A stretch of 64,000 bases of DNA from NCBI GenBank assembly GCA_902783155.1, contig CACZPR010000079.1, forward strand, positions 24,339 to 88,338. Reading direction: 5' to 3'. This document shows, in pieces, positions 60,871 through 61,448 of the stretch (the stretch's first letter is position 1; the number at the start of each line of letters is the position of its first letter). Origin of the DNA: an uncultured Spirochaetaceae bacterium. GTDB taxonomy: Bacteria > Spirochaetota > Spirochaetia > Treponematales > Treponemataceae. The position numbers and the translations under genes are program-made. The notes under the pieces were generated by a model that saw nothing but the letters and a program-made list of their open reading frames with translations, ran no database searches and was not told the DNA's origin.

Positions 60871-60947
60871 CCTGGGGTGGAAAATCAGGTTGAAAAAATC
60901 AGGAAAATTCGCTTGACAATTCCACATTCCTTTTATACATTTAAAGC

Positions 60948-61016
60948 AATTGGGCTGGTCAACATGCGACCCAGGTCCAACCTACTAAGGCGGGCAAACT
61001 GTCCCGCCATTTTTTT
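60948..61016 (+). ncRNA. Candidate structured leader or small RNA upstream of the truncated DUF3800 copy
   Basis: Promoter TTGACA (60913)-17-TACATT (60936). Hairpin at 60952-60978 (GGGCTGGTC-aacatgc-GACCCAGGTCC). Terminator GGCGGG-caaactgt-CCCGCC plus ATTTTTTT at 60989-61016. Confidence 0.45.
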
Positions 61017-61019
61017 CCT

Positions 61020-61253
61020 TTGAACGCGGTGCTTACAACGGAATTGTCTCACTATGATGTTCGAAGAGTTCTTCCAAAGGATTACAAACTTTTTCAAGCC
61101 GCTGATTTAATATGCACATTGAAGTTGCTTAGTCTGAAATGTGAACATAATGAACTCTCTAACTCTGAACTTTTACTTTTTCATAATGAACGTGATTTAA
61201 AAAAGCAATTCTTGAAACCCATAAAAAAGAAACAGTTTGATGAGTTAAAATAA
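61020..61253 (+). pseudogene. C-terminal remnant of a DUF3800 gene (internal deletion)
   Basis: NAVLTTELSHYDVRRVLPKDYKLFQAADLICTLKL...SELLLFH aligns with residues FNALFSNVEMRKVQPADYKLFQVADLICTMEL...SELEFFH of the intact copy. The DESG N-terminal domain is absent. Confidence 0.65.
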
Positions 61254-61271
61254 CTCTCGTATATCAATTCG

Positions 61272-61327
61272 CCCTGTGCGTAAGCCCGAGCGACCTGCCG
61301 TAACTATCTTTCAATTTACTTGACGAC
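61272..61327 (+). repeat. Junction element copy d plus TCAATTTACTTGACGAC module
   Basis: CCCTGTGCGTAAGCCCGAGCGACCTGCCGTAACTATCTTTCAATTTACTTGACGAC begins 19 nt after the remnant stop. Confidence 0.65.
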
Positions 61328-61354
61328 TGCTGTAATTTTGGATATACTACAGTT

Positions 61355-61433
61355 GTAATCGAAAGATTACATGGATAGGATGCATGCGTCCTGGGTCCAT
61401 CGACAGGCGGGGATATACCCCGCCAATTTTTTT
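61355..61433 (+). ncRNA. Candidate structured leader or small RNA upstream of the intact DUF3800 gene
   Basis: Promoter TTGACG (61320)-17-TATACT (61343). GNRA hairpin GTAATC-GAAA-GATTAC at 61355-61370. Hairpin at 61373-61398 (GGATAGGAT-gcatgc-GTCCTGGGTCC). Terminator GGCGGGG-atata-CCCCGCC plus AATTTTTTT at 61406-61433. Confidence 0.45.
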
Positions 61434-61448
61434 GAGGGGAGTGGGATT

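What the first reader, a model, noticed from the sequence alone, without database searches (positions are those of the whole stretch)
60913..61448. Conserved hairpin-plus-terminator RNA precedes both DUF3800 copies, with compensatory base changes
Each copy has its own sigma70-like promoter with 17-nt spacing, then a ~70-80-nt transcript ending in a strong intrinsic terminator immediately before the ORF. The T-run ends 15 nt before GTG 61449. The central hairpin is conserved in shape but not in sequence. The inner stem is AGGAT/GTCCT in one copy and TGGTC/GA(C)CCA in the other, with A-U to U-A swaps at two positions. The loop (G/A)(C)ATGC is conserved. The outer stem is GGA/TCC versus GGGC/G(G)TCC, followed by GGTCCA(T/A)C. 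That amounts to covariation between two copies. From memory, comparative surveys (Weinberg and colleagues, 2017; Rfam DUF3800-type motifs) reported several structured RNA motifs next to DUF3800 genes, of unknown function. The promoter-RNA-terminator-protein layout also resembles type III toxin-antitoxin and abortive-infection loci (RNA antitoxin, terminator, protein toxin), although here there are no tandem RNA repeats. DUF3800 itself is uncharacterised.
Basis: partly seen in the sequence, partly recalled or inferred. Interest (0 to 1): 0.65.

Follow-up and report, generated by a model that had tools for sequence, protein, structure and literature searches.

The report
Known DUF3800-XI small RNA motif
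Two copies of a small structured RNA already catalogued as the DUF3800-XI motif sit in front of an RNase H-like nuclease gene and a decayed remnant of a second one. The RNA is real and strongly conserved, but its job, most likely holding the nuclease in check, is still unproven.

Summary
Both stretches have a sigma-70-like promoter, a bulged hairpin, a short linker and a GC-rich intrinsic terminator.

Copy 1 (60951-61004) passes Rfam's threshold for RF02975, the DUF3800-XI RNA of Weinberg 2017. Copy 2 fails that threshold. It scores 54.7 bits with a model I built from 74 related loci without the window's own copies, and it belongs to a Treponema sub-lineage variant.

- The first "DUF3800 copy" is only a 77-aa C-terminal remnant.
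- The ATGC-type loop is specific to one lineage. Most members have GNRA loops.
- The real start codon is GTG 61449.

Across fetched loci the RNA lies directly upstream of 78 of 79 assessable DUF3800 genes. It is more conserved than the gene (84% vs 69% nucleotide identity), and its inner stem covaries.

Motif-only searches show that about 29% of RNA copies lack an intact DUF3800 gene. Some are in phage contigs: one sits beside a tRNA array and one is fused to a drum RNA.

My best guess (about 0.4) is a type III toxin-antitoxin-like or retron-like module. An abundant terminated RNA restrains an RNase H2-like nuclease that is made by read-through.

It is a known family, and its function is still unknown.

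The parts
60913..60941 (+). Promoter of RNA copy 1 (-35 TTGACA 60913-60918, 17-nt spacer, -10 TACATT 60936-60941)
   Evidence: Consensus scan, 10 of 12 matches. The same position relative to the hairpin holds in related loci.
60951..60979 (+). Copy 1, P1 hairpin: UGGGCU-GGUC-AACAUGC-GACC-CA-GGUCCA (outer stem, inner stem, loop, 2-nt 3' bulge)
   Evidence: Rfam RF02975 hit 60951-61004, 41.6 bits against a gathering score of 37.8. MFE fold. Own model R1, 42.4 bits.
60980..61016 (+). Copy 1, atypical 9-nt linker (ACCUACUAA), P2/terminator hairpin 60989-61008 (6 bp plus a mismatch) and U-run 61010-61016
   Evidence: Terminator scan. The linker and P2 diverge from the family consensus CCGAAY-GGCGGGG...CCCCGCC.
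61020..61253 (+). DUF3800 pseudogene remnant (77 aa, equals residues 155-226 of the intact protein, keeps QxxD, lacks the DESGD catalytic N-terminus)
   Evidence: BLASTP 44% identity, E 1e-18. No Pfam hit.
61320..61348 (+). Promoter of RNA copy 2 and DUF3800 (-35 TTGACG, 17-nt spacer, -10 TATACT)
   Evidence: Consensus scan, 10 of 12 matches. No other + strand promoter-like site lies between it and GTG 61449.
61355..61370 (+). Copy 2, P0: 5'-terminal hairpin GUAAUC-GAAA-GAUUAC, starting at about the predicted transcription start
   Evidence: MFE fold. A hairpin of variable sequence is present at this place in 66 of 72 related loci. It is not part of the Rfam model.
61372..61399 (+). Copy 2, P1 hairpin, variant form: UGGAU-AGGAU-GCAUGC-GUCCU-GG-GUCCA
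   Evidence: Own model R1, 54.7 bits, E 8e-15. Rfam gives only 27.7 bits and skips the hairpin. The same variant, with compensatory G-C to A-U changes, occurs in L001, L219, L221 and L224.
61400..61433 (+). Copy 2, linker UCGACA, P2/terminator GGCGGGG-AUAUA-CCCCGCC (61406-61424) and U-run 61427-61433
   Evidence: Terminator scan, 7 GC pairs. The P2 sequence is nearly invariant across the family.
61434..61441 (+). Shine-Dalgarno-like GAGGGGAG, 7 nt before the start codon
   Evidence: Read from the sequence. Purine-rich sites occupy the same place in relatives.
61449..62132 (+). DUF3800 gene (GTG start, 227 aa), a predicted RNase H2-like nuclease with DESGD...QxxD motifs
   Evidence: Pfam PF12686, E 3.6e-6. 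Homologues are 226-229 aa. AlphaFold2 pLDDT 94.5. Best PDB matches are RNase HII/H2/H3, E 1e-4, TM 0.41-0.47.

Best explanation
Identity (near certain): both stretches are genes for the DUF3800-XI small RNA (Rfam RF02975). Copy 2 is a Treponema-lineage variant that leads an intact DUF3800 gene. Copy 1 is an orphan left in front of a decayed DUF3800 gene.

Mechanism (inferred, about 0.4): the RNA and the nuclease form a self-contained two-part module built like a type III toxin-antitoxin or retron system.
- One strong promoter fires at about 61355.
- Most transcripts stop at the GC-rich terminator. This gives an abundant RNA of about 79 nt with three hairpins: P0 (variable), P1 (conserved base, free tip) and P2 (the terminator stem, which is itself part of the conserved RNA).
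- The rare read-through transcripts carry the ribosome-binding site and the DUF3800 ORF, so far less protein than RNA is made.
- The RNA binds the RNase H2-like DUF3800 nuclease through the invariant base of P1, the CU bulge, the 3' CCACC and P2, and keeps it inactive.
- When RNA supply or integrity is disturbed, for example by phage shut-off of host transcription, the nuclease is freed and damages nucleic acids. That would give abortive infection or module addiction.
- Phage-borne orphan copies of the RNA would then act as antidotes.

Shown: the anatomy, family membership, conservation pattern, covariation, linkage statistics and protein fold. Inferred: termination and read-through ratios, RNA-protein binding, inhibition, and a defence role.
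For: Family membership:
- Rfam hit above the gathering score.
- An independent model finds only these two sites in 64 kb.

Structure:
- 97.5% of cells are paired, with 6 pairs showing double changes. The covariation score is 0.191 against 0.094 in shuffles, with 0 of 500 shuffles reaching it.
- 135 distinct sequences carry 20 inner-stem variants, and only one is imperfect.

Linkage:
- The RNA lies directly upstream on the same strand in 78 of 79 assessable DUF3800 loci from Spirochaetota, Bacillota and Bacteroidota MAGs.
- The same holds in 16 of 16 viral-contig relatives at 39-50% identity.

The RNA is constrained beyond the gene: nucleotide identity is 84% for the RNA core, 69% for the ORF, 64% for the 5' flank and 55% for the spacer.

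P2 is functional RNA and not only a terminator:
- Its sequence is nearly invariant.
- It is kept without a U-run where the RNA sits 5 nt before a phage tRNA array (L089), and also in L119 and L147.

Read-through design: only 15 nt separate the U-run from the start codon, and no promoter lies between them.

Asymmetry expected of an antidote and a harmful protein:
- P(RNA given protein) is 78/79.
- P(intact protein given RNA) is 40/56 in protein-blind motif scans.
- Orphan RNAs occur next to truncated DUF3800 genes (L122, L128, L167 and window copy 1) and in phage contexts.

Autonomy and mobility: 134 flanking ORFs fall into 121 clusters, some of them recombinase, primase or TraG-like.

The protein is an RNase H2-like nuclease with its catalytic motifs intact. 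DUF3800 is the effector of type VII retrons and an accessory of some CRISPR loci (PMC7736814, PMC10910872, PMC12669027).
Against: - There is no experimental evidence for toxicity, binding or defence in any DUF3800-RNA pair. Weinberg et al. offered no hypothesis.
- The protein matches no PADLOC or NCBIfam model.
- The RNA has no tandem repeats, unlike every known type III antitoxin.
- A DUF3800 gene scored as essential in a Legionella Tn-seq screen (10.1101/2020.10.01.323287). That behaviour suits an antitoxin better than a toxin, although the gene is from another subfamily.
- In one lineage the RNA-plus-terminator unit precedes an MNT-HepT pair instead. This also fits a generic expression-limiting leader.
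- The counts are of contigs, and some are near-duplicates. The motif scan fixed 20 bases, so its hits are biased towards canonical copies.
Confidence: 0.4

Rival explanations
1. Cis-acting leader or attenuator. The hairpins and terminator exist only to throttle transcription of a potentially harmful downstream gene. DUF3800, or another factor, might bind P1 to tune read-through (autoregulation). On this view the short RNA is a by-product with no role in trans.
For: - The position is fixed directly upstream on the same strand in 78 of 79 loci.
- No promoter lies between the terminator and the ORF.
- The same unit precedes an MNT-HepT operon in L107, L141 and L173.
- A different DUF3800 motif (VI) is typed 'Cis-reg' in Rfam.
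Against: - I could find no alternative (antiterminator) pairing, and the spacer to the ORF is not conserved (55% identity).
- A plain attenuator does not need an almost invariant stem base, bulge, linker and terminator stem across three phyla.
- The RNA occurs free-standing in phage contigs beside tRNAs or fused to a drum RNA, and after a DUF3800 stop codon, with no gene to regulate.
- Rfam types XI as 'Gene; sRNA'.
Confidence: 0.25
2. Obligate RNA cofactor. The RNA is a scaffold, activator or targeting subunit that DUF3800 needs in order to work (a ribonucleoprotein nuclease), not an inhibitor. The variable 5' domain (nothing, P0, two hairpins or a drum RNA) provides specificity, and the conserved 3' half is the protein handle.
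For: - The architecture is modular: a variable 5' domain and an invariant 3' domain.
- Almost every DUF3800 gene has the RNA.
- DUF3800 partners with eleven different RNA motifs and with retron msDNA (PMC7736814).
- RNase H-fold nucleases commonly act on nucleic-acid duplexes (established knowledge).
Against: - The variable 5' parts are self-paired hairpins, not single-stranded guides.
- I found no conserved complementarity to the gene's own mRNA.
- The conserved part is the same in distant hosts, so it cannot encode target diversity.
- A large RNA excess over protein, as the terminator design suggests, is unnecessary for a 1:1 cofactor.
- Orphan RNAs in phages are harder to explain on this view.
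Confidence: 0.2
3. Not an RNA element at all. The region is either the N-terminal coding extension of DUF3800 from ATG 61371, or a DNA-level site such as a recombination or operator site, and the hairpins are incidental.
For: - ORF 61371-62132 is open in frame, and the public gene call for this contig is 250 aa (P0001).
- The module sits among repeated cassette-like junction sequences.
Against: - Homologues are 226-229 aa.
- 48 of 80 relatives have in-frame stops inside the motif, and 64 of 80 have ATG at the aligned start.
- Substitutions are compensatory in stems and show no codon pattern.
- The + strand folds better than the - strand, and the G-U pairs of the outer stem make sense only as RNA on the + strand.
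- The junction repeat lies outside the motif and is absent from the related loci fetched up to that point.
Confidence: 0.02

Closest known systems
DUF3800-XI RNA motif (Rfam RF02975; Weinberg et al. 2017, PMC5737381)
   Same: - Copy 1 matches the covariance model end to end above the gathering score.
- Both copies have the bulged hairpin, the CCACC-type linker, the GGCGGGG...CCCCGCC terminator and a position upstream of DUF3800.
- The function of the family is unknown.
   Different: - Copy 2 carries a lineage variant (UGGAUAGGAU...GUCCUGGGUCCAUC) that scores below the gathering cut-off.
- The Rfam model omits the frequent 5' hairpin P0 and the 3' arm of the terminator.
- Copy 1 has a degenerate linker and P2, and only a gene remnant downstream.
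Type III toxin-antitoxin / abortive-infection systems (ToxIN, CptIN, TenpIN, AbiQ-antiQ)
   Same: - The gene order is promoter, RNA gene, intrinsic terminator, protein gene with no promoter of its own.
- The module is autonomous, has two components and sits in mobile or variable regions.
- Phages carry copies of the RNA (compare pseudo-ToxI in phage PhiTE, from my own knowledge).
   Different: - The RNA is a single structured unit, not tandem repeats of about 36 nt.
- The protein is RNase H2-like, not a ToxN/AbiQ-fold endoribonuclease.
- No toxicity or neutralisation data exist.
Type VII retrons (RT plus msDNA plus DUF3800 effector; PMC7736814)
   Same: A DUF3800-family nuclease is paired with a dedicated structured non-coding nucleic acid. 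In retrons generally the nucleic acid holds the effector in check.
   Different: - There is no reverse transcriptase and no msr/msd.
- This protein matches no PADLOC retron model.
- The partner here is plain RNA.
drum RNA (Rfam RF02958) and the other 'conserved motifs with 3' terminators' of Weinberg 2017
   Same: These are structured RNAs of unknown function that end in terminators and are linked to DUF3800-like genes. In phage contigs L083, L084 and L093 a complete drum RNA is fused directly 5' of a DUF3800-XI unit.
   Different: The window has no drum domain. Its 5' domain is a simple hairpin (copy 2) or nothing (copy 1).

Membership tests
Rfam RF02975 DUF3800-XI RNA | Covariance-model score at or above the gathering score (37.8 bits) | tested here: met
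   Copy 1 (60951-61004): 41.6 bits. Copy 2 alone does not meet it (27.7 bits, hairpin skipped). The same is true of its closest relative L001 (no hit).
Rfam RF02975 DUF3800-XI RNA | Homology of copy 2 to the family, judged by a model that includes the lineage variants but not the window | tested here: met
   Model R1 (74 sequences from other loci): copy 2 scores 54.7 bits (E 8e-15) and copy 1 scores 42.4 bits (E 4e-11). The next unrelated hit in the window scores 12.8 bits.
Rfam RF02975 DUF3800-XI RNA | Bulged hairpin supported by covariation | tested here: met
   - Inner pairs: GC 27 / AU 16 / GU 4, and UA 25 / CG 13 / AU 7 / GC 2.
- 20 stem variants among 135 sequences.
- The outer stem hardly varies, so it is neither supported nor contradicted, except by the L119 variant (U-A to G-C).
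Rfam RF02975 DUF3800-XI RNA | Located next to a gene for a DUF3800 protein | tested here: met
   Copy 2 lies 15 nt upstream of a 227-aa PF12686 protein. Copy 1 lies upstream of a DUF3800 remnant.
Type III toxin-antitoxin system | Antitoxin is an array of tandem direct RNA repeats processed by the toxin | tested here: not met
   Tandem Repeats Finder finds nothing in 60800-61500 at minimum score 30. There is a single unit per locus in the 78 genome loci.
Type III toxin-antitoxin system | Toxin belongs to the ToxN/AbiQ/CptN/TenpN endoribonuclease families | tested here: not met
   Pfam gives only DUF3800. The best structural matches are RNase HII/H2/H3. There is no PADLOC hit.
Type III toxin-antitoxin system | Intrinsic terminator between the RNA gene and the toxin gene, with a single upstream promoter | tested here: met
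   One search shows the promoter at 61320-61348 and the terminator at 61406-61433, with no promoter-like site before GTG 61449. These are predictions only.
Type III toxin-antitoxin system | Protein is toxic and is neutralised by direct binding of the RNA | not testable with these tools
   This needs expression and binding experiments. The only indirect evidence is the asymmetry P(RNA given protein) 78/79 against P(protein given RNA) 40/56.
Riboswitch / transcription attenuator (cis-regulatory leader) | Mutually exclusive terminator and antiterminator structures, and occurrence only in 5' UTRs | tested here: not met
   - The MFE and centroid structures show only the three hairpins.
- I saw no segment complementary to either terminator arm on reading the alignment.
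- Free-standing copies exist beside tRNAs, after a stop codon and in phage intergenic regions.
Type VII retron | Reverse transcriptase and msr/msd ncRNA adjacent to the DUF3800 effector | tested here: not met
   No RT-like ORF lies next to the module in the window. The neighbours of 80 loci share no conserved partner. There is no PADLOC retron hit.

The most novel reading that the evidence does not exclude
The DUF3800-XI RNA and its RNase H2-like nuclease may be a new class of RNA-antitoxin (type III-like) abortive-infection module. Its antidote would be a single structured RNA in which the terminator hairpin is part of the protein-binding fold. Phages would counter it by carrying orphan copies of the RNA, one co-transcribed with a tRNA array and one fused to a drum RNA. 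If so, this would give a first function to the whole set of eleven DUF3800-associated RNA motifs, and possibly to drum RNA.
Probability: 0.3. Interest if true: 0.75.

Novelty: new member of a known kind. Interest (0 to 1): 0.38.

Why it matters
The eleven DUF3800-associated RNA motifs have had no proposed function since 2017. This locus does not solve that question.

The comparative work around it does give testable leads:
- The terminator hairpin behaves as part of the functional RNA.
- The RNA is under tighter constraint than the nuclease gene.
- Nearly every gene has the RNA, but about three in ten RNA copies lack an intact gene.
- Phages carry free-standing copies.

If the antidote-and-nuclease reading is right, DUF3800 modules would be a widespread gut and rumen defence or addiction system with a new kind of RNA antitoxin.

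The window is a convenient test case. It holds an intact module and a decayed one side by side.

Tried and rejected
1. Coding extension from ATG 61371. Rejected on homologue lengths, aligned start codons and in-frame stops in relatives.
2. Antisense pairing of the conserved linker and P1 3' strand with the DUF3800 mRNA. I noticed GGUCC...GAAA against UUUCGGACC at the GDFGP codons. The complementarity is not conserved, and duplex energies are no better than shuffles.
3. Tandem RNA repeats as in ToxI. None were found.
4. An antiterminator alternative. Nothing is complementary to the terminator arms.
5. Known defence or named families for the protein. No PADLOC or NCBIfam hits, and no PDB relative by sequence.
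6. Cultured phages and plasmids. blastn of the consensus RNA found nothing.
7. The 35-38-nt junction repeat as a terminator, an attC-like hairpin or a group II intron remnant. It has no stable fold. The only Rfam match is a chance-level hit with E = 6. No integrase lies nearby. It is absent from the related loci. It remains unexplained.
8. drum RNA as a general 5' partner. It occurs in only one phage lineage among the loci sampled.
9. A conserved neighbouring gene. There is none.
10. Newer literature on function. Nothing beyond fold predictions and associations. The supplement of Weinberg 2017 is not held.
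Full report
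**What is there**

Reading 60600-62600 shows two similar units on the + strand.

Unit 1:
- Promoter TTGACA-17-TACATT at 60913-60941.
- Bulged hairpin at 60951-60979.
- A 9-nt linker.
- GC-rich hairpin at 60989-61008 followed by seven T (to 61016).
- An ORF of only 77 aa at 61020-61253.

Unit 2:
- Promoter TTGACG-17-TATACT at 61320-61348.
- A small hairpin starting at about the predicted transcription start (61355-61370).
- Bulged hairpin at 61372-61399.
- Linker UCGACA.
- Hairpin GGCGGGG-AUAUA-CCCCGCC at 61406-61424 and a T-run at 61427-61433.
- GAGGGGAG, then GTG 61449 opening a 227-aa ORF that ends at 62132.

The promoter and terminator scans find exactly these sites. The two predicted transcripts (69 and 79 nt) fold as described, with z-scores of -2.7 and -5.4 against shuffles. 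They fold better than their reverse complements.

**Identity**

- cmscan of the whole window at Rfam gathering thresholds returns RF02975, the DUF3800-XI RNA, at 60951-61004 with 41.6 bits (gathering score 37.8).
- At a permissive threshold copy 2 reaches only 27.7 bits. The model keeps the 3' half and skips the hairpin.
- The 227-aa ORF is a Pfam DUF3800 protein.
- The 77-aa ORF after copy 1 aligns to residues 155-226 of that protein at 44% identity. It lacks the catalytic N-terminus, so it is a remnant and not a second gene.
- The motif was described by Weinberg et al. 2017 as one of eleven unrelated-looking RNA motifs next to DUF3800 genes. [quoted passage not shown]
- The literature I could search adds only two things. 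DUF3800 has an RNase H-like fold. It occurs as the effector of type VII retrons and as an accessory of some Cas12/Cas13 loci.

**Start codon**

Of 3344 homologues, nearly all of the best 120 are 226-229 aa. In 80 related genome loci, 64 have ATG at the position aligned with GTG 61449. In 48 of them an in-frame stop lies within the 90 nt upstream, inside the motif. The 253-aa reading from ATG 61371 is therefore an artefact of an open frame.

**Related loci selected by the protein**

A scan of one genome per species with a profile of the protein gave 80 loci. They come from rumen and gut Treponema, Lachnospiraceae, Oscillospiraceae, Bacteroides or Muribaculum-labelled and other MAGs, with 52-75% protein identity.
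- In 78 of them the motif lies directly upstream on the same strand, once per locus, 51-122 nt before the start codon.
- One locus is cut by the contig end, and one (L047) has another hairpin instead.
- The common layout is a near-consensus promoter, usually a 5' hairpin of variable sequence (66 of 72 distinct loci), then UGGGCU-GGUC-GAAA-GACC-CU-GGUCCA, CCGAAY, GGCGGGG-loop-CCCCGCC and a U-run.
- The same holds for 16 of 16 viral-contig relatives at 39-50% identity.

**Structure support**

On 47 distinct sequences the proposed pairs are 97.5% formed. Six pairs show double changes, and no shuffle reaches the observed covariation. Sliding the partners destroys the signal.

On 135 distinct sequences the four inner pairs show 20 combinations with one imperfect case:
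- pair 2: GC 85, AU 36, GU 12, UA 1, CG 1
- pair 3: UA 81, CG 34, AU 12, GC 6

The loop is a GNRA tetraloop in 101 of 135 sequences.

The outer stem, the CU bulge, the 3' CCACC and the terminator stem hardly vary. That says nothing about pairing, but it says a lot about constraint. Note that the metagenome and viral sequences were found with a pattern that fixes 20 of these bases. Their invariance at those positions is partly by construction. The protein-selected set is free of that bias and shows the same picture.

**Copy 2 is a lineage variant**

- The closest protein relatives (73-79% identity) carry UGGAUAG(G/A)AU...GU(C/U)CUGGGUCCAUCGA, with a compensatory G-C to A-U change among them.
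- L001, which has the same variant, also fails the Rfam threshold.
- I built a covariance model from 74 sequences of other loci, leaving out the window's own copies. With filters off it finds only two significant sites in the 64-kb window: copy 2 at 54.7 bits and copy 1 at 42.4 bits. The next unrelated hit scores 12.8 bits.
- A third variant has outer stem GGGGC/GCCCC, so the closing U-A pair becomes G-C. It precedes the DUF3800 gene of L119.

**Constraint**

Over 400 random pairs of loci, nucleotide identity is 84% for the RNA core, 69% for the ORF, 64% for the 60 nt upstream and 55% for the spacer to the start codon. Protein identity is 62%. The RNA, including its terminator stem, is held more tightly than the gene it precedes.

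**Protein-blind search for the RNA**

After removing chance matches, 56 instances had at least 500 nt of downstream sequence.
- 39 have a DUF3800 gene starting just downstream.
- One (L119) sits right after a DUF3800 stop codon.
- 16 have no intact DUF3800 gene.

Among those 16:
- Three are followed by obviously truncated DUF3800 starts (L122, L128, L167), like window copy 1.
- Three related contigs have an MNT plus HepT pair in its place (L107, L141, L173; Pfam).
- Several are in phage settings.

Two of the phage settings stand out:
- In L089, from a 184-kb viral contig, the RNA (64.5 bits) follows tail genes and ends 5 nt before the first of nine tRNA genes. It has no U-run.
- In L083, L084 and L093 a complete drum RNA (RF02958, 88.5 bits) runs straight into a DUF3800-XI unit (62.5 bits). 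It sits between an exonuclease gene and a PhoH-like gene, with no DUF3800 gene in the 10 kb held.

These are counts of contigs, and some are near-identical.

**The protein and its setting**

- The AlphaFold2 model is confident (pLDDT 94.5).
- Its best PDB matches are archaeal and human RNase HII/H2 and bacterial RNase HIII (E about 1e-4, TM 0.41-0.47). This agrees with the literature.
- The DESGD and QxxD motifs are invariant.
- No PADLOC, NCBIfam or PDB sequence match exists.
- The genes flanking the 80 loci share nothing: 134 ORFs fall into 121 clusters. Here and there a serine recombinase, a primase or a TraG-like protein appears. The RNA plus DUF3800 is therefore a self-contained unit that moves between contexts.

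**How it most likely works**

Shown:
- One promoter.
- A strong terminator 15 nt before a ribosome-binding site, with no promoter in between.
- An RNA more conserved than the gene.
- A second hairpin that is kept even where it cannot act as a terminator.
- An RNA that is almost never missing when the gene is present, but is often present without the gene.
- Copies of the RNA in phages.

Inferred:
- Most transcription ends at the terminator, giving abundant RNA, and read-through gives a little nuclease.
- The RNA binds DUF3800 and restrains it.
- Loss of RNA supply releases the nuclease.
- Phage copies serve as antidotes.

This is the logic of type III toxin-antitoxin systems, and of retrons, whose type VII uses a DUF3800 effector. 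I put it at about 0.4. Membership of type III systems fails on two defining features: there are no tandem repeats, and the protein has a different fold. The claim is 'works like', not 'is one'.

Rivals:
- A purely cis-acting attenuator (0.25). The fixed upstream position and the MNT-HepT case favour it. The extreme sequence constraint and the free-standing copies weaken it.
- An obligate RNA cofactor or scaffold (0.2). The modular 5' domain favours it. The lack of any single-stranded variable segment weakens it.

A Legionella Tn-seq study scored a DUF3800 gene as essential. That does not fit a simple toxin role, and I keep it as evidence against.

**Verdict**

It is a new instance, one canonical and one variant, of a catalogued RNA family whose function is still open. 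The locus itself is ordinary for that family. The wider comparison yields several leads that were not in the sources I could read, and none of them is proven.

Noticed in passing
window 57913-57950, 60837-60874, 61271-61308, 62143-62180 (degenerate copy about 57160-57185): A 35-38-nt direct repeat, GCCCAGTGCGWAAKYCCRAKCGACCTGCCGTAAC, lies just after the stop codon of each consecutive gene module (PIN toxin-antitoxin pair, lipoprotein 2, DUF3800 remnant, DUF3800). One of two shared 5' ends follows it, and one of those contains the -35 box of RNA copy 2. It has no stable fold and no U-run, it is not found in the related loci, and no integrase lies nearby. It looks like a cassette junction, but the mechanism is unknown.
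   Followed up: partly
window 53609-57154, 58010-60829, 62242-64000: Three paralogous large lipoprotein genes with a C-terminal DUF6273 domain alternate with the small modules. A homologous 800-aa gene lies just upstream of the DUF3800 module in Treponema MAG locus L008, and a DUF6273-like gene lies near the orphan RNA in L167.
   Followed up: partly
window 57269-57894: A small ORF (70 aa) overlaps a PIN-domain ORF (138 aa, PF13470). This is a typical type II toxin-antitoxin pair. It forms its own module between two lipoprotein genes and shares its upstream junction and -35 sequence with the DUF3800 module.
   Followed up: no
L093 3610-3763 (also L083, L084; IMG/VR viral contigs): A complete drum RNA (RF02958, 88.5 bits) is fused head-to-tail to a DUF3800-XI unit (62.5 bits). 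It sits between a phage exonuclease gene and a PhoH-like gene, with no DUF3800 gene in the 10 kb held.
   Followed up: partly
L089 1870-1919 (184-kb IMG/VR viral contig): A DUF3800-XI RNA (64.5 bits) without a U-run ends 5 nt before the first of nine tRNA genes, after tail-protein genes. Its 3' end would be set by tRNA processing rather than by termination.
   Followed up: partly
L107 about 806-1572 in motif orientation (also L141, L173): The promoter, the DUF3800-XI RNA (67.7 bits, the best Rfam score seen) and the terminator are followed by a nucleotidyltransferase (PF01909) plus HepT-like (PF01934) toxin-antitoxin pair instead of DUF3800.
   Followed up: partly
L119, motif-oriented coordinates: variant RNA about 969-1015, DUF3800 1050-1727, canonical RNA about 1731-1790: One DUF3800 gene is flanked by two RNAs. 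Upstream is a variant with outer stem GGGGC/GCCCC (25.5 bits). Directly after the stop codon is a canonical XI copy (49.2 bits) that lacks a U-run.
   Followed up: partly
L008 2794-2844: A DUF3800-VI RNA (RF02915, 56.2 bits), with its own promoter-like site and U-run, lies about 80 nt upstream of the DUF3800-XI promoter. A GTGCGTCGAGGT-type sequence within it is repeated right after the preceding gene's stop codon.
   Followed up: no
L237 about 2360-2490 and L244 about 2345-2480 (viral contigs): Two motif-like units, or a partial unit plus a full one, lie in tandem before a DUF3800 gene. These are the only hints of repetition seen in the family.
   Followed up: no
window 31581-31768; 42265-42412: A cobalamin riboswitch (43.1 bits) and two adjacent tRNA genes. 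These are ordinary chromosomal features showing that the window is bacterial chromosome.
   Followed up: no
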